Source: a virus (Duplodnaviria; Caudoviricetes). Taken from it: a DNA stretch of 62,043 nt. Below, in pieces: positions 11,468 through 44,537 of this stretch; within the stretch, counting starts at the first letter, position 1; each line of letters opens with the position of its first letter. The position numbers were made by a program, and so were the translations under genes. The stretch spans positions 1 to 62,043 of the IMG/VR virus record IMGVR_UViG_3300003886_000003. One strand, given 5' to 3'. The notes under the pieces are model-generated. The model saw only the letters and a list, made by a program, of their open reading frames with translations, was not told the DNA's origin and did no database searches.

Positions 11468-11886
11468 CACTTTTGTGCATTATCTTACACTTATTTACCT
11501 ATGAAAAAGTCGACACTTTTTTGCCCCCTTCCATATTTTCTGTATGATTTATGTGATGAATGTTAATATTCTATAGGTAATACAGCAAGTTACGCGTGCG
11601 TGTATGCGTACACCTTATAATAACACGCTCCCCGATTGCTGGTTATACCCTCCCCCCGGTACAAATTCCCCCCGGATATCGTGTTAGTGCGCGGCTGTAA
11701 ATTTTGGAAGCACTACCAGGGCGCGGGCTGGCTGGAAATTCCTGGTCATTCGAGATGAAAAGAGTCTCATACAATCGTGTCAGGCTGGGAACAGATATCG
11801 GGGGGAGCAAGGGCCGAGCCTATCTGATCCACCCTATCTCTCGGAGCTACAGAATTCCCGATCCCTGAAGGGAAGTCATCATATAT

Positions 11887-11950
11887 ATCTGATAAAAAAT
11901 TTTTATGCTATCCACAGCAAATCTGACAAAAATTTTTTATTATCCACAGC
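11887..11950 (+). repeat. Tandem imperfect ~31-bp repeats ending in DnaA-box-like 9-mers
   Basis: ATCTGA(T/C)AAAAA..TTTTAT..TATCCACAGC twice; TTATCCACA at 11940-11948. Confidence 0.6.
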
Positions 11951-12018
11951 CACTGAAATTTGACTTGTACACAGTAATTTGCGACGCTCAAAACATCAAA
12001 CAACCAGGAGATGGTGTT

Positions 12019-12189
12019 ATGGCAGACAACGGTTTTCCAGTTCCACAGCGCAAGCCAAGGGTGAAGCGGCTGAGCGGTAGATCGGTTGCTCAAGCAGTGG
12101 CCGGTACGGAACAGCCTTACCCGGTCTATCAGTTTTCACGCAGAGTGTTTGTAGAACGGCCCAAACACAATCCATTCAAGGGGCTGTAA
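12019..12189 (+). CDS. Small basic hypothetical protein
   Basis: AGGAG RBS; abuts the terminase small subunit start. Confidence 0.5.
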   Translation: MADNGFPVPQRKPRVKRLSGRSVAQAVAGTEQPYPVYQFSRRVFVERPKHNPFKGL

Positions 12190-12990
12190 ATGGCCACTAA
12201 AAAACGCGTGGGTGGTGCTCGGAAGAAGACTGTAGAGACAATTACAAAGCGCCTCGGTAGACCCCCCAAAGAGCTGAAGAAACTCGGTAAGGAAACTTGG
12301 GACGAGTTTATATTGATGACCACCAAGGGCACCAAGCGTGCCGTTGCACTGGAAGCGCTGCAAATAACCAAGTACACCTATGATGCTTATTTGATATCGC
12401 ATGTGACGGCAGTTGAACAGGTTCGCCGTGCTGATCAGATATGGCTCAGACGCAACTGGCCGTTGGAGCAGATTGAAGAGATACTGGTGTTGATCGCGAT
12501 GGGCAAGACCATGAAGCAGGCCGGTGAGCTGTTGTTTCTGGACAATGTGGAGATGGTTGGGCTGTATCGAATACTGTTGAAAGACCCGCAGATCAGGAAG
12601 TTGTATGACGAGGCGCGGGAGATGCAGGCTGAGGCGTGGGCTGATGACACGATTGATATTGCTGATGACGGGCGCAATGATACCTACATTAAAGAGAGCC
12701 GGAATGGGACTGAGTACGAGGCGGTGAACTTTGACAACATTCAGCGCAGTAAGCTGCGGGTTGATTCGCGGCGCTGGATCATGGCGCGGCTTCATCATCA
12801 ACGCTTCGGGGATCGGATCAAGCAGGACATTGAAGGGAGCATGGTGGTCAATCATGCCGACCAGTTGACAGCGGCGCGTCAGCGCATGGAGAAGGCCCAC
12901 AAGCAGCGCAAGAAGCTGGGCACTGGCACGCCAGGCAACGTGGTAGACAAGACCATTACTGATCTGCCACCCACCAAGAGTACCCACTGA
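12190..12990 (+). CDS. terS: Terminase small subunit
   Basis: YDEAREMQAEAWADDTIDIADD...RSKLRVDSRRWIMARL...FGD (Sf6-type TerS pattern); directly upstream of TerL. Confidence 0.85.
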   Translation: MATKKRVGGARKKTVETITKRLGRPPKELKKLGKETWDEFILMTTKGTKRAVALEALQITKYTYDAYLISHVTAVEQVRRADQIWLRRNWPLEQIEEILVLIAMGKTMKQAGELLFLDNVEMVGLYRILLKDPQIRKLYDEAREMQAEAWADDTIDIADDGRNDTYIKESRNGTEYEAVNFDNIQRSKLRVDSRRWIMARLHHQRFGDRIKQDIEGSMVVNHADQLTAARQRMEKAHKQRKKLGTGTPGNVVDKTITDLPPTKSTH

Positions 12991-12994
12991 CCCG

Positions 12995-14464
12995 ATGGCT
13001 CGTGCTACGTCCAAGTCGATTGACCAGACTGAGTTCGAGCAGAACCTCCTCGATGACATGGCGCAGTTTTATGATGACTTCCTGGGGTTTGTCTACTACG
13101 CGTTTGAGTGGGGGGTGGGGCAGTTAGAGGACATGGATGGGCCTGATACGTGGCAGGCCGAACAGATGCTCCGGGTAGCTGAGTGTGTCAAGCGTGACCC
13201 GGAGGGAACGATCAGAGAGGCCATCGCAAGCGGGCACGGGATCGGTAAGAGTGCGGAGGTGGCGTGGATCATCCTGTGGGCCATGAGCACCCGGCCCCAT
13301 TTGAACGGGGTGGTGACGGCTAATACAACGACCCAGTTGAACACCAAGACCTGGCGCGAGTTGGCGCTGTGGCACAAGCGGGCCATTAATGCACACTGGT
13401 TCAAGTGGACCGCCACCAAGTTTTTTCATATCGAGCACCCTGAGACATGGTTCGTCGCGGCAACGCCTAATACCGAGCACAACTCGGAGGCATTTGCCGG
13501 GCTGCATGGCACGCACTCTTTGATAATTTATGATGAGGGGAGCGGCATACCGGACAAGATTTATGAGGTGTCCGAGGGCGCGATGACTGATCCCAGGGCG
13601 ATGTGGTTCTTGTTCGGGAACCCAACGAAGAACACCGGTAAGTTTCGGAATGTGTTTGCCAACGATGCACGCTGGGTGACCCACCAGATTGATTCGCGCA
13701 CTTGTAAGATGACCAACAAGACCGAGATTGCTGCCCAGGTTGCGGAGTACGGGGAGGACTCGGATTTTGTGAGGGTCAGGATCAAGGGGCAGTTTCCCCG
13801 CATTGGTTCCATGCAGTTTATATCGAGTGAAGCGGTGGATCGCTGCATGTACTGGGAGGCACCGTATGAGAACTACTATTTGATGCCGATCATTGTCGGG
13901 GTCGATGTGGCACGCTACGGGGACGACAAGACCGTGATCATCGTGCGCCAGGGTCGTAAGATGTTGGAGATACGGAAGTTCATGGAGAAGAGCACCATGG
14001 AAGTGGTGAGCGAGGTCGTCAAGATCATCCGTGAGTACCGACCAGCGGCTGTGTTTGTGGATGGCATTGGTGTGGGGGCCGGGGTGGTTGATCGGCTGCA
14101 CCAGTTGAACCACGATGTGTTTGAAGTGATCGCCAGTCAAAAGGCAACAGATGAAGTGACCTACTATAACAAGCGCATTGAGATGTGGGACAGGATGCGT
14201 GCCTGGATAAAAGCAGGTGCCGACCTGCCCAACGACCCGGACTTGCGGGTGGCGCTGATTGGTATTGAGTACGGGTTTAATGACAAGGAGCAGATGCGCC
14301 TTGAGCGTAAACAGGACATGAAGAAGCGCGGGCTGAACTCGCCGGACGAGGCAGAGGCCATTGCGGTGAGCTTTGCAGAGTTTGTGGGTGAGGTTAATAT
14401 GAACTCATTTGAGCCGGTAGATAATTTTGAGCCGGGTGGTGAAGGGGACATGGAGGCAGCATGA
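12995..14464 (+). CDS. terL: Terminase large subunit
   Basis: Walker A ASGHGIGKS, Walker B IIYDE, GNP coupling motif, nuclease GVDVARYGDD, SPD. Confidence 0.95.
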   Translation: MARATSKSIDQTEFEQNLLDDMAQFYDDFLGFVYYAFEWGVGQLEDMDGPDTWQAEQMLRVAECVKRDPEGTIREAIASGHGIGKSAEVAWIILWAMSTRPHLNGVVTANTTTQLNTKTWRELALWHKRAINAHWFKWTATKFFHIEHPETWFVAATPNTEHNSEAFAGLHGTHSLIIYDEGSGIPDKIYEVSEGAMTDPRAMWFLFGNPTKNTGKFRNVFANDARWVTHQIDSRTCKMTNKTEIAAQVAEYGEDSDFVRVRIKGQFPRIGSMQFISSEAVDRCMYWEAPYENYYLMPIIVGVDVARYGDDKTVIIVRQGRKMLEIRKFMEKSTMEVVSEVVKIIREYRPAAVFVDGIGVGAGVVDRLHQLNHDVFEVIASQKATDEVTYYNKRIEMWDRMRAWIKAGADLPNDPDLRVALIGIEYGFNDKEQMRLERKQDMKKRGLNSPDEAEAIAVSFAEFVGEVNMNSFEPVDNFEPGGEGDMEAA

Positions 14465-14616
14465 GTAAAGTCGCAAACGCCCATGTCATTAATGTGGAGG
14501 CCATACCGAGCGCAGTGCTGAGGCGGCTCATCAAGGAAGTCAGGCTTGAGCAGTGCCCACGCAACACCACGCAGATGTATAACCGGATTCACAATCGGCA
14601 TAACAGGGGCAGATAG
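14461..14616 (+). CDS. 51-aa RiPP-precursor-like peptide (YhhA-type triceptide precursor)
   Basis: GGAGG RBS, ATGA overlap with terL; MSKVANAHVINVEAIPSAVLRRLIKEVRLEQCPRNTTQMYNRIHNRHNRGR; absent from the ORF track. Confidence 0.75.
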   Translation: MSKVANAHVINVEAIPSAVLRRLIKEVRLEQCPRNTTQMYNRIHNRHNRGR

Positions 14617-14617
14617 C

Positions 14618-14791
14618 ATGGAGTGGGACATGGTTGAGGGAGAGAGGGCGTGGTACGTGCTACCGGTGGAGCCGGGGCACTTTCTGGACCCTGATGGACT
14701 GTGTGCCTGCTGTAAGCCGATTGTTGAGCGCTTTGACAGGGACGGCTCACCCTGGCCCAAGCCACTGGTATTTCACGGGGCCAAGCATTGA
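14618..14791 (+). CDS. Small His/Cys protein
   Basis: H...CACCKP...H motif; operon spacing. Confidence 0.6.
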   Translation: MEWDMVEGERAWYVLPVEPGHFLDPDGLCACCKPIVERFDRDGSPWPKPLVFHGAKH

Positions 14792-15132
14792 ACGTCGAGC
14801 TGCCAAAGGGTCTGACGCCTGAGCAGAAGGTGATGGCTGAGGAAGTGCTGCACCGGGACGAGAGTGCGATTATATTGCCCCCCGGTGTAGAAGGGGGTAA
14901 GCTGCCCGGCATTGAGAGTATGGTGGCCGTGTATCATATTGGGCCACTGGGTTGCCAAAAGGTGGCGTTTTACTACACGCACATGCTGGATCAGGCGAGT
15001 GGTGAGATGCCGACGGCGACACGGGCCAAGTTCCCCGATGGCCGAAGACCTGACCGGGGACAGCCGATGCTTTGTGGGACGTGCAACGCGCATGTGAACC
15101 TGATGTGTGACTTGAAGTGGGGGAAGCTGTGA
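14788..15132 (+). CDS. Hypothetical protein
   Basis: H....C and CGTC motifs; overlapping start/stop. Confidence 0.6.
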   Translation: MNVELPKGLTPEQKVMAEEVLHRDESAIILPPGVEGGKLPGIESMVAVYHIGPLGCQKVAFYYTHMLDQASGEMPTATRAKFPDGRRPDRGQPMLCGTCNAHVNLMCDLKWGKL

Positions 15133-15596
15133 ATAGTCCAAGAGCGATCATTATGCCCAACGCCGCCGGTCAGTTTGGCCGGGAGATTACGGCAGACCAC
15201 AATGAAATCAACATCCTTGAGACTGATGATGTCAAGTTTGGCAAGCTGGAAATGTGGATCGCCAAGCAGATTGGTGCATCACTCGTGCAGCACTATCCCA
15301 ACCGGCAGTGGGGGGTAAAAGTAGACTGTCCGGCACAGATGATGGTGGTTTCATGCAATTCTGTGTCCTACAATAAGGGCTACCACATATCGATGCACTT
15401 GCGAAATGTTGAAGAACTGCAGCGACGTGCTATACTCGCCGCAGGAGAAATCCTTGAGCGCCACGATATCTCACGTGCTCGACGATTTGATGCCGACATC
15501 TTGGAAACGTTACCGAGGAATCATAAAGACGATGTAATAGTCAAAGACGGTAGTGCAGACCCGGTGCCCATAAACGTCAAACCGGCGCGAGATTGA
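15129..15596 (+). CDS. Hypothetical protein upstream of portal
   Basis: GTGA overlap; L..HYP...W.V...ILAAGEILER pattern. Confidence 0.7.
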   Translation: MNSPRAIIMPNAAGQFGREITADHNEINILETDDVKFGKLEMWIAKQIGASLVQHYPNRQWGVKVDCPAQMMVVSCNSVSYNKGYHISMHLRNVEELQRRAILAAGEILERHDISRARRFDADILETLPRNHKDDVIVKDGSADPVPINVKPARD

Positions 15597-15599
15597 GAT

Positions 15600-17948
15600 A
15601 TGCCAGCGCAACAAGCACAAGGTAATCAGAACCCGGAGTTCAGACCGGAAGGCCCAGCTCGCCAGATGACCGGCGTGCAGGCAGAGTTCACACAGAACAA
15701 ACAGTTCCTGGGGCAACCCAACCATCCCACCTCACCCAGTACACCTGGGCGTGTTCCTGGGAAAGAATCACCCCTTTATACTCGTGGACCGCAAGATATT
15801 GCTCCCGGTGAAGTGCCCGGTGGTGATGCCTCGGCTACAACGATGGACAGCGTTAATACGCAAGCCAAACAAAGTATAGAAGGGGCTTTTTTGAAGTCTC
15901 CCGCCTGGCTGATCATGAAAGCGCACGAGATATACACCACCTCGACGGACTATCTCGACGCCAACATCACCAATACCTGGGAAGTCAGCCTCGCTCATTT
16001 CAATAATGAGCACGCCCCCGGTAGCAAATTGCGTACCAAAAACTTCAAACGATCAAGAGTGTTCCGGCCCAAGACCCGCAGCATGATCAAGAAGAGTGAG
16101 TCGGCCCTTGCGGTAGCGATGTTCTCTTCACAGGACTATCTCAATCTGACGCCGGTAGATGCGTCCGATGAGGTGCAGGTTATCTCTGCAGAAATCAACA
16201 AGAACGTGCTGCAGTACCGACTGGATAGCCAGATGCCATGGTTCCAGACCGCTATTGGTGCCTATCAGGACACCAAGAACTACGGGCTGTGCATTTCACA
16301 CAATTATTGGAGCTACATCGCTGATACGGACTATGTGCCTGAATTTAATGGTGATGGCTCACTCATGACCAACGATACCGGTCAAGCCATGGGGCGTGCG
16401 GTGCCCATTGTGCGATCTGACACGATGGTTTGTGACAATGTGGCCCCGGAGAACTTCAGATTTGACCCCATGTGCGATTGGCGTGACCCGATCAGCACAT
16501 CACCCTACCTACTCTACATGATGCCCGTGTATGCCGGTGAAGCACTGGAACGGATGCAGAACAACGACCCCAAGACCGGTCAGCCGACGTGGAAAGTCCA
16601 TGATTTGGGGTCACTATTGGCTACCCGGCGCAAGAATTATGACCGTACACGCCAAGCGCGTGAGGGCAGACAGCGGATTGACCCCGCTGATGAGCAGCAT
16701 GGCAACGATTACACCATGCTGTGGGCACACATGAACATCGTCAAGATTAATGGCGAGGATTATGTGTTCTGGACGATGGGCACTGAGCTGTTATTGACTG
16801 ATCCGGTGCCTTTGGTCAAGGCATATCCGCACCTGAAACGGGGTGAACGCCCCTTTACCATCGGTTTTTCGACGGTTGAAACCCATCGCAACTACCCTGC
16901 TGGTGATAATGAGCAGATGTCGGGGTTGCAGGAGGAAATCAACACAGTAGCCAATCAGCGCCTGGATAACGTGAAATTGGTGCTAAATAAGCGTTATTAC
17001 GTGCGCAGAGGGTCACAAGTCGACCTGGATTCACTGGTCAGAAACGTGCCCGGTGGCGGTGTAATGATGAATGACCCGGATAAAGACGTGAAAACCGTCG
17101 ACACCCGCGATGTGACCGGCTCAAGTTATCAGGAACAGGACCGTTTGACCGCTGAAGCCGATGAACTGACCGGTCTTTTCTCGCAAGGGTCGATGCAACA
17201 GAACGGTAATGCCAGTAATACTGCGCGTGGCATGAACGCCATGAAGCAGGACGCTGGATCAATTGGGGATTACGGCATTCGGATATTCATGGAGACATGG
17301 GCCGAGCCGACCCTGCGCCAATTTGTCAAGATGATCCAGTATTACGAGACAGATGAGGTCATTTTGTCGATTGCAGCCAAGCAATCCAAGCTGTGGCAGC
17401 GTTATGGCATTGATCAAGTCACAGACACCCTGTTGCAGCAAAACCTGACAGTGCGTGTAGACATCGGTATTGGCATGACAGACCCAGTGAAGCGCGTGGA
17501 GCGCCTGCTGTATGCCATTGAGAAGGCGATGACCCTCCCAGGCATGGCAGACCGCATGAAGGCTCCTGCGCTGTCTAACGAAATATTTGCAACGCTTGGA
17601 TATCGTGACGGCAACCGCTTCTTTATGACCGACGATGAGTTTGCCAAGGCCACTGAAGATGCTGGGGACCAGACGCCGCCGGAGATTATGGTCAAGAAAG
17701 AAGAGTTGCAGATTCGGCGTGAAGATAATGCAGCCCGCCATACCCGTGAGCAGGAGGACATGGCGATGACGGCCCAACTGGGCTTCGCTAAACTGGCGAT
17801 GGATAAAGAGATGACGCTGGAAACGCTTTATCAGAAGCTGGGCATGGAGAAAGAGAAAGTGAAAGCGTTGCGCGATGTCGCGGCGCTCCGTGAAACAAAC
17901 AAAGTGCATGAGTTGGCGCTGAAGCGTCAGACCGGCTCAGGCATATAG
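15600..17948 (+). CDS. Portal protein
   Basis: 782 aa after terminase; FRFDP, LQEEIN..NQRLDN, TARG, C-terminal coiled coil. Confidence 0.85.
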   Translation: MPAQQAQGNQNPEFRPEGPARQMTGVQAEFTQNKQFLGQPNHPTSPSTPGRVPGKESPLYTRGPQDIAPGEVPGGDASATTMDSVNTQAKQSIEGAFLKSPAWLIMKAHEIYTTSTDYLDANITNTWEVSLAHFNNEHAPGSKLRTKNFKRSRVFRPKTRSMIKKSESALAVAMFSSQDYLNLTPVDASDEVQVISAEINKNVLQYRLDSQMPWFQTAIGAYQDTKNYGLCISHNYWSYIADTDYVPEFNGDGSLMTNDTGQAMGRAVPIVRSDTMVCDNVAPENFRFDPMCDWRDPISTSPYLLYMMPVYAGEALERMQNNDPKTGQPTWKVHDLGSLLATRRKNYDRTRQAREGRQRIDPADEQHGNDYTMLWAHMNIVKINGEDYVFWTMGTELLLTDPVPLVKAYPHLKRGERPFTIGFSTVETHRNYPAGDNEQMSGLQEEINTVANQRLDNVKLVLNKRYYVRRGSQVDLDSLVRNVPGGGVMMNDPDKDVKTVDTRDVTGSSYQEQDRLTAEADELTGLFSQGSMQQNGNASNTARGMNAMKQDAGSIGDYGIRIFMETWAEPTLRQFVKMIQYYETDEVILSIAAKQSKLWQRYGIDQVTDTLLQQNLTVRVDIGIGMTDPVKRVERLLYAIEKAMTLPGMADRMKAPALSNEIFATLGYRDGNRFFMTDDEFAKATEDAGDQTPPEIMVKKEELQIRREDNAARHTREQEDMAMTAQLGFAKLAMDKEMTLETLYQKLGMEKEKVKALRDVAALRETNKVHELALKRQTGSGI

Positions 17949-32621: not shown

Positions 32622-33321
32622 ACTAGCAAAGTGGGGTGCAGTCGCCGGGCTAGGCGAAGGCATTGTAAAGAACGCTGAGACAGCGATCAAGCGCGAGGAT
32701 GATGTGCTTGAGGAGCAGCGTACCCAGCGACTTGAAAACATACGCAACAGCAATGCCATCAAGCGTGACAAAGTGCGAGCGTCGGAAGACAGAAAACGTA
32801 CCGAGATGGAGATTACTGGCCGGTCAGACTTGCAAGATGTGCAGATTGAAGCAACTGCAACTGAAGGTGTTAAAAACCGTACGGGAGAAATGGCTGTTCA
32901 GGAAGAAAGAAGTGCAGGCGCACTTGCTGTTGCTAAAGTTAATCAGGCTAATAAAGATAAAAAGAAATGGACTTCCAACAGGATCAAAGGTGGTAAGGAA
33001 ATGAATGCCGAGGGTAGCATTGTTGAGTACCCTGACTCTATTGCTGTTACTGATCCATATTCCAGTCTGACTTTTGTTCAAAGAGGTAACAAGTTGTTAT
33101 TGCAAGGTGTAAAATACGCCAAGATTCCAGATGAACAAGACCCAAGAGGGTTTATTGTGCGGCTTATAAACGCTGACACAGGTATGCCCTATGCGTACTT
33201 GCCAAATCCTAAAGCTGAAAACGCTGCAGAAAAACAAGCACTAAAAAGCGAAGAAGACGGGATGGCATTTCAAAAGGCTTTCGGGTATTTACCAATATCG
33301 TACAGGAAGAAATTTGAATAA
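32614..33321 (+). CDS. Putative internal virion protein
   Basis: GAVAGLGEG N-terminus plus coiled coil. Confidence 0.65.
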   Translation: MVKLAKWGAVAGLGEGIVKNAETAIKREDDVLEEQRTQRLENIRNSNAIKRDKVRASEDRKRTEMEITGRSDLQDVQIEATATEGVKNRTGEMAVQEERSAGALAVAKVNQANKDKKKWTSNRIKGGKEMNAEGSIVEYPDSIAVTDPYSSLTFVQRGNKLLLQGVKYAKIPDEQDPRGFIVRLINADTGMPYAYLPNPKAENAAEKQALKSEEDGMAFQKAFGYLPISYRKKFE

Positions 33322-36300
33322 TGGCCTTTACGAGCGCACAGTTTATTGAAATGTTTGGGGAGCAAGACCCGGACAAAGAGCAAGCATTGCCTGTTGAACC
33401 ACCTGTGCCAGATATCCCAAGTGAAGTACCGGCACCAGCCCCTGTAGATGTAGCGCCTGATGAAGCACAGGCACCAGCCCCTGTAGAGCCTGAAGAACCC
33501 GACAAAGTTTTTACTTCCGAAGACTTCATTAATAAATTCGGCGCAGTGCAGCCACAAGCAGCATCACAGGCTCCCCCACCTGACACTGAACCCACTACGG
33601 TTACTGGAACTTTTGCGGAGTGGCTTGCACAAGAAAAGGAAGCGGCTCCTGATCCCAAAGATAACCCCGGTTATTATTCAAACTTGGTACGCAAGTTTGC
33701 CGAGTCGTTCCCCCATGCTGCCGGTGAAGCGTTAGCAACAGGCAACGCGATAGGGAAAAGGATTAACGAAGAGTTAAAAACTAAAGAAGGTAGCGCCTGG
33801 AATGACATATTGTCTGCCACACAGCTACTACAGGGTATTGCGAGCCAGCGGCTTAAAGGTGCTGATTTTGGTGCCGTAACCCTTACAACACCAGAAGATA
33901 TAAAAGCTAAGTTCAATGAAGGTGATGCACTTGGGACAGCCGTTAAGGTAGCAGAATTTATACCTGAGACATTGGCTGATTCAGTCGCCTACATGATTAG
34001 CCTACCACTTACAACTCTGTCTTTGACAGACATGATTGCTCAAGAAAACGCGGATAATGAAGGTAAAAAAGTACCTGATTTTATAGACTATGTTGAGGCG
34101 TTCCCGTTTGCACTAGGCTCAGCCATAATAGAGCTAGTAACGGGTAGAGCGTTAATCAAACCGCTTTTGAAATCAGTAGGAGTAATCGGTAAAAAGAATA
34201 AAAAAGCGATTGAAAAAGTCGGTAAAGATGCTTTACGGCAAGGGTTTGCTGCCTCCCTTAAAAAAGGGGCCAAACTTGGCGGTGGAGAAATGACTGGTGA
34301 GTTTATTCAGGAAGGTGTTATTGAATACATCGGTGGGCGATACGGCACTGATAAAGCGCTTGACTGGAAAGAGGGGGCTGAGCGCGGTGGTTGGGCAGCA
34401 CTTGCTGGTGCTGGTTACGGCTTTACGCTTGGCACCATTGGAGCTAGAGCCGATCAGCGTAGAGCCGGTGAGCAAGAAGGGGATGTAGTTGCTGATGAGC
34501 TTACTGGCGCACTGGACGAGGTTGAGAATGAAGCTGGTAATATTGATCAGGCCCAGGCTGATGCGGTTGATCGGGCGCAGGAGCAGGGCGGGGATGAGCT
34601 TGATCAAGCACTAGCCGGTGCGCAAGCAGCCGCAGACATAGCAGCAAAGGATGGGGATGCAGCAGCAGCCGTTGAGGAAGCCAGCGCGCTACAGGACCGC
34701 ATAGCGGAAGATGAGAAGCGTACCGCTGCAGAGAGTGCCAAAGGTGAACTTGAAGCTGCCAAAACAAGAAAAAAGCAGCAGGCAAAGAAACGCGAAGATG
34801 AAAGTGTTGAAGAGTTCCGGGCACGAGTAGCAGCGGCTGGACTGGAAGCCGGTCAGACTACCGCACAGCCTGTTCCAGAACCACAAGCGCCGATCCCTGA
34901 AGCACCAGCCAACCCTGCAATGCGCGAGGCGCTCAAAAAAGCAGAGTCAGAGCGTATTGCAAAAGAAAAAGTAACCAAGGCTGAAGAAGTAAAAGCCGAA
35001 GAAGTAGCAGCAGTTGCTGAGAAAAAACGTGGCGAATTTCCTGAAGACTTTATTGCACAGGAAACCAAGCCATCACGTCGTGAAGAAAACCGCCCTGGAA
35101 AAGATCGACGCGAAGACACTAAGCAACGTAAAGCCATTAACGAGATGACGCTTGAAGAAGCTCAGCACGAGCTTAGAACTGATTCGCTGACCGGGCTGGG
35201 AAGCAATCGCGCTTGGGAGGAAACTGAGAAAAAACCTGTCATTGCAGCTATCGATGCTGACTCGTTGAAGTGGTTCAACGATAACATGTCTTTTGCTTCG
35301 GGCGACAAAATGCTCAAGGAGATTGGCAAGGCCATTGCTGCAGAAACAGATCAGGGGTTCCACCCAACCGGTGATGAGTATTTTGTACAGGGTGATACGC
35401 AAGAGGAAGTTGATGCGATTATGGCTCGTGTTGAAGCACGGCTAAAAGATATAAAAATTACTGCTACACGCCCCAACGGAACAGTCATAACTAAAACAGG
35501 CGTAAGTTTTAGCTATGGCACCGCTGCTAACGAGGAAGCAGCAATATTTGCAATGAAGGATGAGAAGGCAAACCGCCAGAAAGCCGGTGATAGAGTTGCA
35601 ACCGGTGAGCGCCCATCGGGGGTCAATGAAGTAGGGTTTAACGCCTACCGCGAAGAAGAAATAAAACAGGAAGAAAAGAAAAAGGAAGAGAAACTTGCAA
35701 AGCGTAAAGCGAAACTTGCAGGGAAAAAAGATACTCCTAAAACTGAAAAGGAACTGGCAGGGGAGTTTCGTTCCGAAGCAGAGGAAGCTGCAACATCTCC
35801 GACCAATAATTTAAAGGAGCCTACTGAAGCTCAGAAAACTGCAGGCAATTATAAAAAGGGCCATCCTGAACTACAGGGTGTAAAAATAGCTGTTGAAAAT
35901 CCAGTTGGCTCAGTGCGCACTGGTACTGATGAAACCGGCAGATCATGGAAGCAAAAACTTAAAGATGCCTATGGATATGTAAAAGGTACTTTAGGCGCTG
36001 ATGGTGATCCTGTTGATACCTTTGTGGGCACTAATGTAAAAAGTGAAAAGGTGTTTGTGGTTGATCAGATCAATCAAACCTCTGGTGAGTTTGATGAGCA
36101 CAAGGTGATGCTGGGGTATTCTAACGGGCTTGACGCAAGGCGTGCTTACAGCAGGAACTATGAGGACGGTTGGAAAGTTGGCCCGATCACTGAGATGACA
36201 ATGGATCAGTTTAAGCAGTGGGTTAACTCAGACAAAGCACAAAGAGCTATTCAACTATCCAAGATACAGAGCGACCTAAAAAATAAAGCGTCTGGTGTAA

Positions 36301-37202
36301 CTCAAAAAGAGATTGATGACACGATTGCTTCACAGACTGGAAGAGGGCGCAGAACAACCAGTGTCACAAACAACTCTTCAAGGCTTGAAAAAGCGAAGAC
36401 CAGAATACCGGTATCAACTAATGAAGATGTGGAGAATACACTCGGTAAGCCTGACAAGAAGCCCAAACCCAAGACTGAAAAGGTTGAGCCAAAAGTATCT
36501 CGCCAGGAAGTAAATAGCGTCGCTGATGGTATCAGAGCAGAAATGCCCAGTGTTGGCATTACTGTTGTTACCAACGTCGATGAGCTGCCATCCAACTTGT
36601 CTCAGAAAGTTAAAGACGATAAGGCAACCGGGGTGAAAGGATTTTATGATTCAGAAACAGATCAGATATATATCATAAGTGACAACGCCAGCTCTGTTGA
36701 AGATGCAGAGTCAACAATACTCCATGAAGTTGTCGGGCACAAAGGGTTGCAAGCGTTTCTTGGTGACAGTTTTGATACTGTAATGAATGAGATGTATCAG
36801 TCAATTACTGACAGAAAAGCGCTTAATGCTTTGGCTGAAAATAAAGGTATAGACACCACAACAGACGCAGGCAAACAGTTAGCGGCTGAAGAATATGCAG
36901 CGTCAATTGCTGAAAAAGATACAGGCACACCGGGCATACAGCGGCTTATATCTAAAATGCGTGCTGCACTTCGCAAGATGGGTGTTATCAGTGAGTGGAC
37001 TAATGCTGATATAAAAGCGCTTTTAAGCGAAGCAAGAGCCGGTATGCAGCGGGCACCATTGAGCGATTTTGTGGTATCTTATAAGGCTGAAGTGAGAGAA
37101 ACCGGCGAAGTAGTTGACATTAAAGATGATGTAGACGTTGCCCTGCGTCAGATTGATAAGCGGCGTGGAGTATTGGAACAGCTAAGAGGATGCTTGTCAT
37201 GA
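33321..37202 (+). CDS. Polyvalent protein: GGDEF-like, inorganic-pyrophosphatase-like and zincin-like domains
   Basis: DSLTGLGSNR / IDADSLKWFND / SGDKML / TGDEY; PTEAQK.AGNYKKGH...YGY...GADGDPVD...DEHKVMLG; HEVVGH...EEYAA. Confidence 0.85.
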   Translation: MAFTSAQFIEMFGEQDPDKEQALPVEPPVPDIPSEVPAPAPVDVAPDEAQAPAPVEPEEPDKVFTSEDFINKFGAVQPQAASQAPPPDTEPTTVTGTFAEWLAQEKEAAPDPKDNPGYYSNLVRKFAESFPHAAGEALATGNAIGKRINEELKTKEGSAWNDILSATQLLQGIASQRLKGADFGAVTLTTPEDIKAKFNEGDALGTAVKVAEFIPETLADSVAYMISLPLTTLSLTDMIAQENADNEGKKVPDFIDYVEAFPFALGSAIIELVTGRALIKPLLKSVGVIGKKNKKAIEKVGKDALRQGFAASLKKGAKLGGGEMTGEFIQEGVIEYIGGRYGTDKALDWKEGAERGGWAALAGAGYGFTLGTIGARADQRRAGEQEGDVVADELTGALDEVENEAGNIDQAQADAVDRAQEQGGDELDQALAGAQAAADIAAKDGDAAAAVEEASALQDRIAEDEKRTAAESAKGELEAAKTRKKQQAKKREDESVEEFRARVAAAGLEAGQTTAQPVPEPQAPIPEAPANPAMREALKKAESERIAKEKVTKAEEVKAEEVAAVAEKKRGEFPEDFIAQETKPSRREENRPGKDRREDTKQRKAINEMTLEEAQHELRTDSLTGLGSNRAWEETEKKPVIAAIDADSLKWFNDNMSFASGDKMLKEIGKAIAAETDQGFHPTGDEYFVQGDTQEEVDAIMARVEARLKDIKITATRPNGTVITKTGVSFSYGTAANEEAAIFAMKDEKANRQKAGDRVATGERPSGVNEVGFNAYREEEIKQEEKKKEEKLAKRKAKLAGKKDTPKTEKELAGEFRSEAEEAATSPTNNLKEPTEAQKTAGNYKKGHPELQGVKIAVENPVGSVRTGTDETGRSWKQKLKDAYGYVKGTLGADGDPVDTFVGTNVKSEKVFVVDQINQTSGEFDEHKVMLGYSNGLDARRAYSRNYEDGWKVGPITEMTMDQFKQWVNSDKAQRAIQLSKIQSDLKNKASGVTQKEIDDTIASQTGRGRRTTSVTNNSSRLEKAKTRIPVSTNEDVENTLGKPDKKPKPKTEKVEPKVSRQEVNSVADGIRAEMPSVGITVVTNVDELPSNLSQKVKDDKATGVKGFYDSETDQIYIISDNASSVEDAESTILHEVVGHKGLQAFLGDSFDTVMNEMYQSITDRKALNALAENKGIDTTTDAGKQLAAEEYAASIAEKDTGTPGIQRLISKMRAALRKMGVISEWTNADIKALLSEARAGMQRAPLSDFVVSYKAEVRETGEVVDIKDDVDVALRQIDKRRGVLEQLRGCLS

Positions 37203-38719: not shown

Positions 38720-39202
38720 ATGAAACCAATAACGGCATTTTTGAAGTCACTGATAGTTTTAATGATCGCCAGCCCTACAATGAGTAAGGTGCAGGCAGTT
38801 GATCAGCTACAGCTTGTCACCAATGGTGTCAGCAATGCAGCAGGTAATATCTGGTTTGATGAAATCGCGATATTCTATGCGTCTATCGGTACGATCAACA
38901 CAGGCACTTTTAACTCGTGGCGCAACTCTGTTATTAACGATGGTGAAGTAAAGTCTAACGCCTTGCTGGATGCCACTGAAGATGCGCTCGTTAGAGTGGG
39001 CACGCTATCTGATATTAGTGAGGCCATACGATTTAAGAAGCGCGAAGATAGAGTAGTCGAAATGGTAGATGAAGTTAAGTCTTTGCGCACGTTCAGGGAT
39101 GCACAGACAGACCCAGTGGTTATCACTGCGTTGAACTGTGGCATTGTGGATTTAATTAGTAAGCGCAATGGGCTGCAACAACGTATTGGTGGGGGCGCAT
39201 GA
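38720..39202 (+). CDS. Hypothetical protein
   Basis: AGGAG RBS; signal-peptide-like N-terminus. Confidence 0.6.
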   Translation: MKPITAFLKSLIVLMIASPTMSKVQAVDQLQLVTNGVSNAAGNIWFDEIAIFYASIGTINTGTFNSWRNSVINDGEVKSNALLDATEDALVRVGTLSDISEAIRFKKREDRVVEMVDEVKSLRTFRDAQTDPVVITALNCGIVDLISKRNGLQQRIGGGA

Positions 39203-40005
39203 AGGCGTTAAACGCAATTGCCGGTGTGCCAAGATCAGGGTCAACCCTGTTGTGCAATATTTTGAATCAAAACCCGGCGTTTCATGCAACAGATACTTCC
39301 GCAATTCCTGAGATAATGGGCACGTTGACTAGCACGATAAGCATAAACGCAGAGATACAAGGTCTACTGGCTGTTGATTCTGAAAAAACAGAACAGCGTA
39401 TCCGAGAAGCAATGCGGGCATTAGTCAGTTCCTGGTACAGCGAGATGGATAAGGTGGTGTTTGATAAAAGCAGAGGGTGGGCTTTTCATGGGGTACTCCT
39501 TGCTGACCTGTTTCCAGAAGCTAAAATTATAGCAACGGTGCGCGACCTGAGAAATGTGTTTGGGTCTATTGAAAAGCAGCATCGTAAAGCGCCGTTCTTT
39601 GATATGGCTACCAACCCAATGGATAAAACAATCATGCAGCGGGCTGATGTGATGATGTCGCCCACCGGCATGATTGGAACCTGTGTGGTCGGGCTGCAAG
39701 ACTTGATATCAAGGTGCCCAAAGCGCGTACATGTTGTGCGCTTTGAGTCTTTAGCCCACGATCCTAAAACCAACTTATCAGAGATATATGAGTTCTTGGA
39801 GCTTGAACCGTATGAGCATGACTTTGATAATATTGAAAACGTATCCAATGAGCCGGACCATTTATATCTCAATAAGTTTCCGCATAACGGTGATGGCAAA
39901 GTAGAAAAGACAGATAGAAATGCGTGGCAAGAATACCTCACGCCTGATTTGGCACAGATGATTCACTCCCGGTATCCAGACTACAATAAACTATTCGGGT
40001 ATTAA
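39199..40005 (+). CDS. Sulfotransferase family protein
   Basis: 5'-PSB motif GVPRSGSTLL..IL, 3'-PB motif VRDLRNVFGS, VRFESL..DP. Confidence 0.9.
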   Translation: MKALNAIAGVPRSGSTLLCNILNQNPAFHATDTSAIPEIMGTLTSTISINAEIQGLLAVDSEKTEQRIREAMRALVSSWYSEMDKVVFDKSRGWAFHGVLLADLFPEAKIIATVRDLRNVFGSIEKQHRKAPFFDMATNPMDKTIMQRADVMMSPTGMIGTCVVGLQDLISRCPKRVHVVRFESLAHDPKTNLSEIYEFLELEPYEHDFDNIENVSNEPDHLYLNKFPHNGDGKVEKTDRNAWQEYLTPDLAQMIHSRYPDYNKLFGY

Positions 40006-41372: not shown

Positions 41373-44300
41373 ATGGCTGGACTCGCTACATGTATTCGTA
41401 AGGCTGGAAAAGCACTCAGCAGATCAGACGCTGATTCCATTCGTGAGATGCAGGGTGATTATATTGCAGATGGTATGTCAGGCACAGAGTCTGCTAAAAA
41501 AGCAGTTGGTGATCTGATAGGCATGGTCGAGCAAGAAAAATCTGACATCATAAAGAAAGTAACTAGAGCTGGTGGGGATACCCGTGCGCTTACCGGTGAG
41601 CTGTCATACCCGAAAGGCACAAAGCCAGGCAAGGCTTCTAAAAAGACAAAGACAAAACAACCGCTAAAGTATCGTCTTGATGATGAAGTGGTTGAAGATT
41701 TGATAAATGAAAAGCCACTTCACCCAGTTGCTCAAATGTATAAGGTTGGTATCTCTGTAGAGGAACAGGTTGAGAATAACCCTGGCATGTCTCCACAGCT
41801 TCTCAATAAAGCAAGAGGCATGACAGAGAACCAGTTCGAGAATTTCCTGGGGTTTATTCCGAGACAGTATCTTGCTGACTTTGGCAAAAAGATAACGGCA
41901 GTAAAAGAATACATCCGTGAAGCCTCTCGCATGGATGGAACGCGCAATGAGCTTATGGATGAGTTTGATAAGGTGATAAAGCCATGGAATAAATTTATTG
42001 CCAAAAATCCTAAGTGGGGACGGCTGCTAGGCACGATAATGCACGAGTCAACACTGGCTGAAGTTGATCCGTCGATGGAGTATAAAGCGCTCAAGAAACC
42101 GAAGAAAATAAAAGCAGATGATGCGTACTACAAGATAGACGCACTGCGCAGAAAGAAGCATAAAATTCTGCAGGATAGATTTAACGCTATGCCCACAGAC
42201 GCGCAGAAAATCTACACGTCTGTTCGTGACTCATATAAAACACAGCGTGCTCGTGTACACCAGCAACTGAGAGATAACATCTCCAACACTGACGTTGGGA
42301 CTGATGTAAAAGACTCCATGCTTGCACTGCTTCGTACAAAGTTTGAAGTAGGCAGAGTGAAGGGACCGTACTTCCCGCTAACCCGATTTGGTGAATTTTG
42401 GGGAGTAGCACGTGATGCAGACGGGAACATAATCTCTTTCAGCAAGTTTAACACCGGCCCGGAAATGCGTCAGTGGGTAGCGGATTTCAAAGCGTTGGGT
42501 AATGGGGTGACTGCAAGGGGCGGTAAGAAGATGGATGAAAAGTCTGTCATGAATCATATTGACCCCAGCTTTGTAAAAAAGATAACTGACTTGACACAGA
42601 ACATTGGTGGCATCCAGGGTAAGGAACTGACCGATGAAATCTGGCAGCTTTATCTCCGGTCAATGCCTGAGATGTCAATGCGCAAGTCGTTCATACATCG
42701 TGCTGGCAGGCTTGGGTTTAGCGCTGATGCTACCCGTGCTTACGCATACAATATGTTTCATGGCGCACACCAGTTAGCCAAACTAAAACACCTTCCTAAA
42801 ATGGAAGGACTCATGACTAAAATACGGGATCAAGCCAGTGAGCTTGAAAACACAGATGACCCCGATGGAAAGTGGGCGTCCCCGATATACAAAGAGATGG
42901 TCAAGCGGCACGACTTTGCAAAAAACCCCAAGGTCAGCCCCATGGCAACCAAGGCTACAGCATTCGGGTTTCTGTGGTTCCTGGGAGCAACGCCATCTGC
43001 AGCGCTTGTTAACTTAACTCAAAATGCAATTGTCGCATTCCCACATCTTAACGCTCGGTATGGTAAAGGTATCGATGGCGCAGGGCACGTTGCACAGTTA
43101 ATGAAAAAAGCCTATGGAGAATACTTTGGCTCAACTAAATCAATGGCTGACCGGTTACGAGGCGACGAGCATAAAGCGTTTATAGAAGCTGAGAAATCGG
43201 GCGTCTTTGGTAGAACACGGGGGCACGATCTTGCCGGTGTTGCCGAGGAAGGCATGACATACAACTCCAAGCAACGTCAGTTTATGGAGATGGCTTCTTG
43301 GATGTTCCATAAGGCCGAAGAGTCTAACCGGCAGATAACCTTCATGACCGCATACAGATTAGCGCGTGAAGCTAAAATGGATCATGAACAGGCGATACAA
43401 GCAGCGGAAGAAGATACCTTATTGTCACACTTTGATTACAGCGTTGCTAACCGCCCGCGCATACTGCAAAACAGCATGGCGAAAGTAATATTCCTGTTCA
43501 AGCAGTATTCAATGCACATGATATACCGCATGTCTCGTGATTTCTCAGATGGGTCAAAAGGCACGTTCCGTCAAGTTGGCAATAAGCTGGGACTGACTGA
43601 AAATGAGATACAGGATTTTGAGCAGGAAGCACGTAAGCGACTCGCCGGTATGCTTGGCGTTACTGCGCTGCTTGGTGGCATGTCATCGATGCCCTTGATG
43701 TGGGGTGCAATAGCAATCATGAATGCTACGATGGGCACAGAGGATGAGCCTTTTGATGCTGAAGTAGCAATACGGCAGTACATATCAGAAGCATTCGGTG
43801 GAGGTGAAACTGGGACTGAAGCCCAGGAGTTTATTTGGAAGGGGAGTGTAGACACTGTGTTTAATGCAACACTGTCATCCCGCATATCGCTCAACCAGTT
43901 ATTGTGGCGGTCACCCCCACCACAAAAAGAAGGTGATGAAGTATACTACCACTACCTGGGTGAACTTGTAGGCCCAGTATTTTCTGTAGCAAAAGATGTA
44001 GTAGAATCAAGCAAGCTGTTCTACGAGGGGCAGGCTGATCGTGGGCTTGAGAGGTTGATGCCTAAAGCCGGTAAGGATTTGCATAAGGCATTCAGGTACT
44101 TTAACGATGGCGCACAGAACTATCGTCAGATGCCCATCATTGCACCTGAAGCGTTCAATGAGTGGGATATATTTTTACAGGCAATTGGATTTGCGCCTGC
44201 AAGACTTACTCAGCAGCAGGAGCAAAACAGAGCAGTAAAAAACACAGAGCGATTCATTACAGACAGAAAATCGCACATTATGGATCGTCTGTTTATGGCA

Positions 44301-44537
44301 ATCAGGAACAGCGATCCAAGTTCTATTAAGGCGTACAAATTAAAAATTATAGCTTTTAATAAATCCAATCCTGGCATGGCAATTGATGTGTCTGCTATAT
44401 TTGCTTCCGCGAATGCCAGGAACGAGTATGACATGATGACACTCGGTGGCATAAATGTTAACAAGAAGCTGTTCTACCTGAATCAAAAACTTCGCTTCGC
44501 ACCCCGGTACGATAAAGAAGGGAACATTAAAAAATGA
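41373..44537 (+). CDS. PLxRFG-domain large internal virion/ejection protein
   Basis: GPYFPLTRFG motif; ALVNLTQ, E..NR..T...AY, FDYS..NRP, FKQYS. Confidence 0.85.
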   Translation: MAGLATCIRKAGKALSRSDADSIREMQGDYIADGMSGTESAKKAVGDLIGMVEQEKSDIIKKVTRAGGDTRALTGELSYPKGTKPGKASKKTKTKQPLKYRLDDEVVEDLINEKPLHPVAQMYKVGISVEEQVENNPGMSPQLLNKARGMTENQFENFLGFIPRQYLADFGKKITAVKEYIREASRMDGTRNELMDEFDKVIKPWNKFIAKNPKWGRLLGTIMHESTLAEVDPSMEYKALKKPKKIKADDAYYKIDALRRKKHKILQDRFNAMPTDAQKIYTSVRDSYKTQRARVHQQLRDNISNTDVGTDVKDSMLALLRTKFEVGRVKGPYFPLTRFGEFWGVARDADGNIISFSKFNTGPEMRQWVADFKALGNGVTARGGKKMDEKSVMNHIDPSFVKKITDLTQNIGGIQGKELTDEIWQLYLRSMPEMSMRKSFIHRAGRLGFSADATRAYAYNMFHGAHQLAKLKHLPKMEGLMTKIRDQASELENTDDPDGKWASPIYKEMVKRHDFAKNPKVSPMATKATAFGFLWFLGATPSAALVNLTQNAIVAFPHLNARYGKGIDGAGHVAQLMKKAYGEYFGSTKSMADRLRGDEHKAFIEAEKSGVFGRTRGHDLAGVAEEGMTYNSKQRQFMEMASWMFHKAEESNRQITFMTAYRLAREAKMDHEQAIQAAEEDTLLSHFDYSVANRPRILQNSMAKVIFLFKQYSMHMIYRMSRDFSDGSKGTFRQVGNKLGLTENEIQDFEQEARKRLAGMLGVTALLGGMSSMPLMWGAIAIMNATMGTEDEPFDAEVAIRQYISEAFGGGETGTEAQEFIWKGSVDTVFNATLSSRISLNQLLWRSPPPQKEGDEVYYHYLGELVGPVFSVAKDVVESSKLFYEGQADRGLERLMPKAGKDLHKAFRYFNDGAQNYRQMPIIAPEAFNEWDIFLQAIGFAPARLTQQQEQNRAVKNTERFITDRKSHIMDRLFMAIRNSDPSSIKAYKLKIIAFNKSNPGMAIDVSAIFASANARNEYDMMTLGGINVNKKLFYLNQKLRFAPRYDKEGNIKK

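What the first reader, a model, noticed from the sequence alone, without database searches (positions are those of the whole stretch)
14461..14616. Orphan triceptide-type RiPP precursor translationally coupled to the terminase
Seen: a 51-aa ORF with good RBS and ATGA overlap, a helical leader-like S.VL.RLI.EVR and a C-terminal core YNRIHNRHNR with three Y/H-N-R triplets. From my recollection of the family, this matches YhhA-type precursors whose aromatic-X-X motifs are cross-linked into cyclophanes by SPASM radical SAM enzymes. I saw no radical SAM gene (CxxxCxxC) among the ORFs. Inference: the phage borrows a host maturase or makes a decoy substrate that jams a host RiPP-linked (possibly defence) system during packaging.
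Basis: partly seen in the sequence, partly recalled or inferred. Interest (0 to 1): 0.85.

Follow-up and report, generated by a model that had tools for sequence, protein, structure and literature searches.

The report
Phage-borne orphan triceptide (YhhA) precursor
A complete phage genome carries a well-conserved gene for the precursor of a ring-containing modified peptide but none of the enzymes that modify it, so the phage probably feeds this peptide into enzymes of its host.

Summary
ORF 14461-14616 (51 aa) has a GGAGG ribosome-binding site, an ATGA overlap with the terminase large subunit stop, and the C-terminal core YNRIHNRHNRGR. It scores above the curated cut-off of NCBIfam NF041705, the YhhA cyclophane RiPP precursor family (48.3 vs 36 bits, E 8e-13).

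The window is a complete 62-kb phage genome with a 91-bp terminal repeat. It has no radical SAM, YhhB or YhhC gene and no CxxxCxxC frame.

This is not a one-off. YhhA-type peptides without a maturase recur in about ten phage or mobile-element backgrounds that share no other nearby gene with the window. The core is invariant while 8 of its 12 codons vary synonymously. That pattern indicates a translated, selected gene with no phage-encoded partner.

All six bona fide bacterial yhhAB(C) clusters I examined lie beside known or candidate anti-phage genes (CBASS, short pAgo, Septu, an OLD/Gabija-like ATPase, PDC-S24, Abi_C).

My best reading is that the peptide is a substrate mimic that engages a host YhhB/YhhC pathway, probably as counter-defence. 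That step is inferred, not shown. The host is unknown, and the one cellular genome carrying such a copy has no YhhB. The link to packaging is incidental.

The parts
14461..14616 (+). yhhA-like gene: 51-aa triceptide precursor plus TAG stop
   Evidence: ORF list and sequence. NF041705 scores 48.3 bits against a cut-off of 36, E 8.2e-13. No Pfam, PHROG or PADLOC family matches.
14503..14544 (+). Conserved leader block I15-P-S-A-V-L-R-R-L-I-K-E-V-R28, the presumed maturase-recognition helix
   Evidence: Invariant or near-invariant columns I15, S17, L20, R21, R22, L23, I24 and E26 in alignment A1. The block aligns with the leaders of maturase-linked YhhAs (A2). It is the start of the NF041705 match. 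The recognition role is inferred.
14578..14613 (+). Core YNR-I-HNR-HNR-GR: three aromatic-Asn-Arg motifs at the C-terminus
   Evidence: Invariant in 9 phage-type loci, with synonymous variants in 8 of 12 codons and no amino-acid change. YNR and HNR are the motifs cross-linked by YhhB.
14452..14456 (+). Shine-Dalgarno GGAGG for the yhhA-like ORF
   Evidence: Read from the sequence.
12995..14464 (+). Terminase large subunit; its TGA stop (14462-14464) overlaps the yhhA start
   Evidence: phrog_2 and phrog_5902. tblastn finds phage terminases at 50% identity or less.
12190..12990 (+). Terminase small subunit
   Evidence: PF20901 Sf6_terminase, E 1.9e-19; phrog_1482.
14605..14609 (+). AGGGG inside the last yhhA codons, 8 nt before the next ATG (14618): a likely SD for the downstream ORF
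   Evidence: Read from the sequence. The same arrangement (..AGGGGCAGATGA..) is seen in other phage loci.
14618..15596 (+). Three small ORFs of unknown function (14618-14791, 14788-15132, 15117-15596) between yhhA and the portal gene. They are not partners of yhhA.
   Evidence: No NCBIfam, Pfam or PHROG match. No homologue within 5 kb of yhhA in any other locus.
15600..17948 (+). Portal protein, the next gene of the packaging and head operon
   Evidence: phrog_1216. tblastn finds about 35% identity to Vibrio phage proteins.

Best explanation
The ORF is a real, translated, selectively maintained member of the YhhA family of triceptide precursors. A probably virulent phage carries it as a stand-alone gene inside the TerS-TerL-...-portal operon. 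The phage has no enzyme to mature it. The most likely mechanism runs as follows. During late infection the peptide is made with the packaging proteins. Its conserved leader helix (SxVLRRLIxEV) docks onto a host-encoded YhhB radical SAM/SPASM maturase, with or without the YhhC 2OG oxygenase. Its YNR, HNR and HNR motifs then occupy that enzyme or are cross-linked by it. The phage thereby feeds its own substrate mimic into a host RiPP pathway. Because bona fide yhhAB(C) clusters sit in defence islands, the probable purpose is to subvert that pathway, by competing with the host's YhhA or replacing it. Shown here: family membership, the orphan status, recurrence in unrelated phages, purifying selection, and the defence-island context of the canonical clusters. 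Inferred: translation in this particular phage, binding or modification by a host YhhB, and the counter-defence purpose. My odds: real selected YhhA-family gene 0.95; acts through a host YhhB-type enzyme 0.6; purpose is counter-defence 0.3.
For: Family membership: NF041705 scores above its cut-off. Maturase-linked YhhAs on three plasmids score 60-61 bits in the same test. Leader and core align with them (A2).

Orphan status: the genome is complete, with direct terminal repeats and 100% estimated completeness and a 91-bp repeat. It has no PF04055, YhhB or YhhC.

Recurrence: a profile of 6 peptides finds 801 representative clusters at E<=1e-3. YhhA-type ORFs occur in IMG/VR and metagenome contigs beside a terminase, RusA, a class II RNR with intein, CsrA and a tail protein. 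PF04055 is found in 0 of 10 further viral records, one of which is a 100% complete phage with a full precursor (G404). tblastn with three YhhB-type proteins hits only L011 among 25 sequences held.

No phage-encoded partner: within 5 kb either side, the window shares only the peptide with the 15 other loci compared.

Selection: the core is invariant with 8 of 12 codons varying synonymously. Over 24 conserved codons, window-vs-other dN is 0.10-0.51 and dS is 0.58 to saturated. The median dN/dS is 0.19 over the 40 computable pairs of 66.

Chemistry of the family: YhhB links Tyr-C3 and His-C2 to Arg-C-beta, and YhhC hydroxylates (passages).

Defence context: 6 of 6 bona fide yhhAB(C) loci lie beside defence genes. 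These are an OLD/Gabija-like ATPase, short pAgo plus Aga, CBASS plus SIR2, Septu PtuA/PtuB plus a HamB-like helicase, PDC-S24, and RmrA-like plus Abi_C plus DUF4411. The Vibrio cluster is just yhhABC, with no exporter or protease annotated, which fits an intracellular role.

Precedent: lanthipeptide clusters enriched in defence islands (26.6% vs 5.6%) protect against phages from inside the cell (passages of bioRxiv 10.1101/2024.06.26.600839).
Against: The host of this phage is unknown, so the presence of a host YhhB could not be checked.

In the only case with a cellular genome (L003 in the Planctomycetota MAG G001), no YhhB-type enzyme was found. The best match scored 44.8 bits against a cut-off of 445. 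In 401 genomes of that phylum, 0 reach the YhhB cut-off. The MAG may be incomplete, but this counts against dependence on a host maturase.

The phage core is nearly the same as cores next to maturases. The product would therefore resemble the host's own, and a simple 'jamming' effect is not obvious.

The defence association rests on 6 loci, 5 of them plasmids, and I used a liberal definition that includes candidate PADLOC systems. Two sub-threshold YhhB-like chromosomal loci had no defence neighbours among the 10 proteins tested.

There is no expression, binding or modification data.
Confidence: 0.5

Rival explanations
1. Hijack for production. The host YhhB/YhhC matures the phage-encoded precursor into a triceptide that benefits the phage. 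It might inhibit a host process or competing phages, or be released at lysis and act on neighbouring cells. This is not a decoy role.
For: Both the leader and the whole core are under strong purifying selection. That is expected if the modified product itself matters. Phages are known to carry biosynthetic clusters (bioRxiv 10.1101/2020.10.01.322628, search listing only; review passage).
Against: No exporter, protease or immunity gene accompanies the phage gene. The host maturase is unverified, and G001 lacks YhhB. No bioactivity of YhhA-type products came up in the papers I read.
Confidence: 0.2
2. Maturase-independent function. The unmodified 51-aa peptide, an amphipathic helix with a very basic Arg/His tail, acts on its own, for example by binding nucleic acid or a host protein. 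The likeness to YhhA reflects ancestry only.
For: No maturase is present in any phage record. G001, the one known cellular carrier, lacks YhhB. Leaderless core remnants exist in two phage contigs, L031 and L036.
Against: The phage copies keep exactly the residues that define maturase-linked precursors: the leader block plus Tyr/His-Asn-Arg spacing. They still pass the equivalog HMM. A new function would be expected to relax some of these constraints.
Confidence: 0.2
3. Neutral passenger. The gene was recently captured from a bacterial yhh cluster, rides along in a variable region between terL and portal, and has no function in the phage.
For: It lies in a block of small unannotated ORFs. The gene moves between unrelated backbones.
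Against: It recurs in about ten backgrounds with dS from 0.6 to saturation while the amino acids are conserved. It has tight translational coupling at both ends.
Confidence: 0.07
4. Chance ORF or mis-called frame: not a gene at all.
For: It is short, and a 198-aa ORF lies on the opposite strand (14164..14760).
Against: HMM E 8e-13, above the curated cut-off. It has a ribosome-binding site and an ATGA overlap. The pattern of synonymous-only change is specific to this frame. The opposite-strand ORF overlaps the terL 3' end.
Confidence: 0.02

Closest known systems
YhhA/YhhB/YhhC triceptide system (NCBIfam NF041705, NF041707, NF041706; characterised by Sugiyama et al., JACS 2022, as cited in the review PMC11002830; the original paper is not held)
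   Same: The leader block and the C-terminal Y-N-R / H-N-R / H-N-R core match, and the HMM score is above the cut-off. The expected chemistry is Tyr-C3 and His-C2 to Arg-C-beta cyclophanes plus beta-hydroxylation.
   Different: No YhhB or YhhC lies next to it or anywhere in the genome. It sits in a phage structural operon, coupled to terL, not in a bacterial or plasmid cluster.
Orphan YhhA-type genes in other uncultivated phages and mobile elements (L002/L004/L005/L010/L012, L006/L008, L003, L013, L029/L030, L032, L033, L038)
   Same: Stand-alone precursor, with the identical core YNRIHNRHNRGR in 8 other loci. No radical SAM is present in the DNA or records held.
   Different: The backbones, neighbours and gene positions are unrelated. 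Only the window has it directly after terL.
Lanthiphages: defence-island class I lanthipeptide clusters with intracellular anti-phage activity (bioRxiv 10.1101/2024.06.26.600839; passages read)
   Same: A RiPP pathway located in defence islands and on mobile elements, as found here for 6 of 6 yhhAB(C) loci.
   Different: The chemistry and enzymes differ. For lanthiphages the anti-phage function was shown experimentally, whereas for yhh it is only guilt by association. In the passages I read, no phage-encoded precursor was mentioned.
Phage-encoded mimics of labile host components, such as antitoxin mimics against toxin-antitoxin or abortive-infection systems (recalled from general knowledge; no call)
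   Same: The phage carries only the small 'substrate or antidote' half of a two-part host system.
   Different: No evidence that YhhB/YhhC is toxic or that YhhA is an antidote. This is a working analogy only.
Biosynthetic gene clusters carried by temperate phages (bioRxiv 10.1101/2020.10.01.322628, search listing only; review PMC12360287, passage)
   Same: Natural-product genes on phage genomes.
   Different: Those are whole clusters in temperate phages. Here there is a precursor only, in a phage with its own DNA polymerase and primase and no tyrosine integrase.

Membership tests
YhhA precursor sequence family (NCBIfam NF041705) | Score at or above the curated cut-off (36 bits) over the full 33-position model | tested here: met
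   48.3 bits, E 8.2e-13, residues 15-49 against model positions 1-33. 47.5 bits in the six-frame search.
YhhA precursor sequence family (NCBIfam NF041705) | Leader block ..S.(V/A)L.RL(I/V).E(V/I).. followed by a short linker | tested here: met
   Alignments A1 and A2. The same block appears in the 150 best family representatives.
YhhA precursor sequence family (NCBIfam NF041705) | C-terminal core with three aromatic-X-Arg motifs (Y-N/D-R, H-N-R, H-N-R) | tested here: met
   Y40-N-R, H44-N-R, H47-N-R, then G-R and stop.
YhhABC biosynthetic gene cluster (triceptide system) | Adjacent YhhB radical SAM/SPASM maturase (NF041707) | tested here: not met
   0 hits for NF041707 and PF04055 in the complete genome. 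No CxxxCxxC frame. The gene belongs to the precursor family but is not part of a yhh cluster.
YhhABC biosynthetic gene cluster (triceptide system) | YhhC 2OG-Fe(II) oxygenase (NF041706) | tested here: not met
   0 hits at E<=1.
Triceptides (cyclophane RiPPs) | Three-residue cyclophane cross-links actually formed on the peptide | not testable with these tools
   Needs co-expression and mass spectrometry or NMR.
Anti-defence (counter-defence) phage genes | A host defence system that the gene neutralises | tested here: inconclusive
   6 of 6 bona fide yhhAB(C) loci lie beside defence genes. No defence function of yhh is known, YhhB and YhhC match no dedicated PADLOC system (only generic pVip and 2OG similarity), and the host is unknown.

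The most novel reading that the evidence does not exclude
YhhABC triceptide clusters are a RiPP-based anti-phage (or inter-mobile-element conflict) system of defence islands. Phages of many lineages have repeatedly captured the precursor gene alone as a counter-measure. It would be a substrate or 'antidote' mimic that occupies the YhhB/YhhC enzymes, and the first phage anti-defence factor that is itself a RiPP precursor.
Probability: 0.3. Interest if true: 0.9.

Novelty: new variant of a known kind. Interest (0 to 1): 0.7.

Why it matters
Triceptides are described as the largest subclass of cyclophane RiPPs, with about 3,900 predicted pathways (PMC11499958, passage). The papers I could read report chemistry for the Yhh type but no biological role.

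Two findings here make a concrete biological hypothesis testable:
- A selectively maintained precursor-only gene occurs in unrelated phages.
- Canonical yhh clusters sit beside CBASS, pAgo, Septu and similar systems.

The hypothesis is that this pathway takes part in phage-host conflict and that phages interfere with it through the precursor. If it is right, it adds a new chemical class to anti-phage defence and a new type of counter-defence. It would also provide natural leader/core variants for probing YhhB substrate recognition.

Full-text searches found no paper holding both 'triceptide' and 'bacteriophage'. Only one unrelated paper held 'orphan precursor', RiPP and phage together.

Tried and rejected
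- Megablast of 12900-15700 against GenBank phages: no match.
- tblastn of the peptide against phages: only 7 spurious hits at E=7 in Pseudomonas phage coat genes.
- tblastn of the peptide against plasmids: no match at E<=0.1, although plasmids do hold bona fide yhhA. tblastn with this 51-aa query is therefore too insensitive, and the phage null is weak. The PHROGs null is the better statement about isolated phages.
- ESM Atlas: the nearest clusters are unnamed or carry integrase SAM-like domains in 13-20% of members, with 135-163 of 256 features shared. I treat this as uninformative.
I therefore could not sample Vibrionaceae or Rhizobiaceae genomes.
- Planctomycetota (401 genomes): 0 YhhB and 0 YhhA over their cut-offs. 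Only G001 had a near-threshold YhhA, at 34.2 bits.
- Sequencing runs: no RNA holder listed.
- Promoter and terminator scan of 11500-16500: counts were not above shuffled expectation, and nothing lies between terL and the ORF.
- No tRNA genes, so no host clue from that source.
- The original triceptide-landscape paper (JACS 2022) is not held and supplements are closed. Its cluster lists may already record orphan or phage-borne precursors that I could not see.
- I did not run complex prediction or a structure prediction. A stand-in maturase from another organism with a homologous substrate would not separate the substrate, decoy and unmodified readings.
- Three IMG/VR pattern hits (L034, L035, L039) are chance matches in another frame with Ser in place of Arg. 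I dropped them from all counts.

Full report
**What is there**

The window is a complete uncultivated phage genome. IMG/VR classes it as having direct terminal repeats and 100% estimated completeness, and I found a 91-bp terminal repeat. It encodes:
- a D5-type primase-helicase, a family A DNA polymerase and an SNF2 helicase;
- TerS, TerL, portal and major head protein;
- no tyrosine integrase and no tRNA.

Its TerL is at most 50% identical, and its portal about 35% identical, to anything in GenBank phages. The nearest isolates infect Vibrio and Pseudomonas. The host is unknown.

Directly after terL lies ORF 14461-14616, 51 aa. GGAGG sits 4 nt upstream. The ATG overlaps the terL TGA as ATGA. 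The stop is followed after one base by the ATG of the next small ORF, whose likely SD (AGGGG) lies inside the last yhhA codons. No promoter-like or terminator-like site separates it from terL. Co-transcription and translational coupling are therefore the simplest reading, but this is inferred.

**Identity**

The peptide matches NCBIfam NF041705, 'YhhA family cyclophane-containing RiPP', over the whole model. It scores 48.3 bits against a cut-off of 36, E 8.2e-13. Three plasmid YhhAs that sit next to yhhB score 60-61 bits in the same kind of search. Pfam, PHROGs and PADLOC have nothing for it.

From passages in papers:
- YhhB cross-links Tyr-C3 and His-C2 to Arg-C-beta in three-residue rings (review PMC11002830).
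- 'HNR cyclophanes' are made by YhhB (PMC11499958).
- YhhC is the oxygenase that gives erythro-beta-hydroxy-Asp on hydrolysis of YhhB/C-modified YhhA (PMC12186529).

The phage peptide's core, YNR-I-HNR-HNR-GR, is exactly that substrate type. Its leader block SAVLRRLIKEVR aligns with the leaders of maturase-linked YhhAs from Vibrio, Novosphingobium, Rhizobium and a metagenome contig (A2).

**Orphan status**

Three findings establish that the phage has no maturase:
- The genome has no Radical_SAM domain, no YhhB and no YhhC.
- It has no CxxxCxxC motif in any open frame of 120 aa or more.
- The three small ORFs between yhhA and portal have no family matches and are not found near yhhA elsewhere.

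**Recurrence and selection**

A profile of the six closest peptides finds 801 representative clusters at E<=1e-3 among 1.84 billion proteins. The family consensus is a leader ..I.S.VL.RLIEEVR.. and a core Y(N/D)RxHNRHNR(G/S)R.

Pattern-guided scans gave the following.
- One locus came from 185,579 species genomes: L003, in a Planctomycetota MAG, flanked by DUF5131 and ArdC-type genes.
- Eleven loci came from metagenome contigs.
- IMG/VR contigs were also found.

Of the 11 IMG/VR pattern hits, three are chance frames, two are leaderless remnants, and six hold full YhhA-type ORFs. One of those six is the contig already found.

Only one of all these loci, L011, has a maturase. Its ORF starts right after the precursor and is YhhB (partial, 307.5 bits, E 1e-91). 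Its core lacks the GR tail.

All the others look like phage or mobile DNA. Their neighbours include a terminase, RusA, a class II ribonucleotide reductase with intein, CsrA, ParB, a resolvase and a tail protein. They hold no YhhB-like sequence (1 of 25 sequences hit, and that one is L011). The ten further viral records have no Radical_SAM anywhere (0 of 10). Two of those records are 100% complete and one is 88% complete.

Within 5 kb either side, the window shares nothing but the peptide with the 15 other loci compared. Apart from two sets of related contigs (L002/L004/L005/L012 and L006/L008), the other loci share only the peptide with each other too. That gives roughly ten independent backgrounds and no conserved partner gene.

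The core YNRIHNRHNRGR is identical in nine loci, while 8 of its 12 codons carry synonymous variants. Over 24 conserved codons, dS between the window and the others runs from 0.58 to saturation, with dN 0.10-0.51. The median dN/dS is 0.19 for the 40 of 66 pairs that could be computed. I chose conserved blocks, which biases dN downward. Even so, the synonymous divergence in those same codons shows the frame is read and constrained.

**Where canonical clusters live**

tblastn with the L011 YhhB found five plasmid genes annotated yhhB. I looked at all five plus L011.

| Locus | Record | Neighbouring defence or candidate defence genes |
|---|---|---|
| L040 | Vibrio echinoideorum p1 (yhhABC) | OLD/Gabija/AriA-like ATPase (E 6.5e-24); a kinase/phosphatase pair |
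| L041 | Novosphingobium pLA4 | short pAgo (E 7e-186) and its Aga nuclease partner (E 4e-188) |
| L042 | Rhizobium sp. L51/94 | CBASS cyclase (E 1.7e-142) with phospholipase, Cap2/Cap3-like genes and a SIR2 protein |
| L043 | R. etli | Septu PtuA/PtuB (E 5e-268 and 4e-99) and a HamB/PDC-M23B helicase (E 1e-177) |
| L044 | R. tumorigenes | PDC-S24 Fic protein (E 2e-192) and ParDE |
| L011 | metagenome contig | RmrA-like HTH-ImmA protein, DUF4411 and an Abi_C protein |

That is 6 of 6. For comparison, the lanthiphage preprint reports 5.6% for ordinary lanthipeptide clusters and 26.6% for the defensive clade (passages).

Several caveats apply:
- Five of the six loci are plasmids.
- My definition of a defence gene is liberal.
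- Two chromosomal YhhB-like loci below the family cut-off showed no defence neighbour among the 10 proteins tested.
- YhhB and YhhC themselves match only generic viperin and 2OG models in PADLOC.

**Mechanism**

The data argue that the phage gene needs something the phage does not encode. They also argue that both the leader and the core matter. The simplest partner is a host YhhB-type maturase. Given the defence-island context, I favour interference with that host pathway: a substrate or 'antidote' mimic. A production hijack and a maturase-independent role are the live rivals.

Against the favoured reading:
- The one cellular genome that carries such a copy (G001) has no YhhB-type enzyme. Its best match is 44.8 bits against a cut-off of 445. 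In 401 genomes of its phylum, none reaches the cut-off.
- A near-identical core makes simple 'jamming' non-obvious.

The position next to terL is unique to this genome among the full-length copies.

**Novelty**

The peptide family is known and would be named automatically in a bacterial genome. What I found in no paper is a phage-borne, precursor-only form, or a defence-island setting for yhh clusters. The original JACS 2022 paper and all supplements could not be read.

Noticed in passing
L011, L040, L041, L042, L043, L044 (bacterial, plasmid and metagenome loci): All six bona fide yhhAB(C) clusters examined lie within about 5 kb of known or candidate anti-phage genes: RmrA-like/Abi_C/DUF4411, an OLD/Gabija-like ATPase, short pAgo plus Aga, CBASS plus SIR2, Septu plus a HamB-like helicase, and PDC-S24 Fic. 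Two sub-threshold YhhB-like Planctomycetota loci (L046, L047) do not.
   Followed up: partly
window 14600-14620; L002 6158-6172; L003, L005, L006, L010, L012, L013 at the yhhA stop: The last yhhA codons (..AAC AGG GGC AGA TGA) serve as the Shine-Dalgarno and the overlapping ATGA start of the next gene in many phage loci, although the downstream genes are unrelated. The conserved G-R tail may be constrained partly at the RNA level.
   Followed up: partly
L036 588-2603: A terminase N-terminal domain ORF (Terminase_6N, 588-1316) is followed by an insert of about 550 bp. The insert begins with a leaderless mini-ORF ending in YDRIHNRHNR plus two stops. Then come another ORF (1872-2603) and a P22-type portal. 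This may be a split terminase with a YhhA-core remnant at the junction.
   Followed up: no
L031 502-600 (complete phage record G405 with terminal repeats): A stop-to-stop frame of 32 codons ends in the exact core YNRIHNRHNRGR, but has no start codon and no leader. It is either a decayed copy or a recoded or read-through form.
   Followed up: no
window 33321-37202, 41373-44537, 39199-40005, 52000-52791: Two giant 'polyvalent' proteins: a 1293-aa protein with GGDEF-like and InPase domains, and a 1054-aa protein with LPD39. There is also a sulfotransferase, and a PAPS-reductase-like gene next to the DNA polymerase. These are candidate injected counter-defence or DNA-modification functions.
   Followed up: no
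L041, L043, L044 (and L042): In Alphaproteobacteria yhhB is about 711-716 aa, twice the Vibrio length. It is followed by GNAT and family-2 glycosyltransferase genes. In two Rhizobium plasmids (L042, L044) a His-Xaa-Ser (Hxs) radical SAM system lies within a few kb.
   Followed up: no
P0078, P0139, P0143, P0107; L029/L030 ORF 1259-1702: Some family members carry an N-terminal Cys-rich (zinc-ribbon-like) extension before the YhhA leader. Others hold two leader-core units or two cores (P0011, P0012, L038).
   Followed up: no
L032 2094-2504: A CsrA homologue (PF02599, E 2.4e-18) and a ParB-N protein lie in the same phage contig as an orphan yhhA.
   Followed up: no
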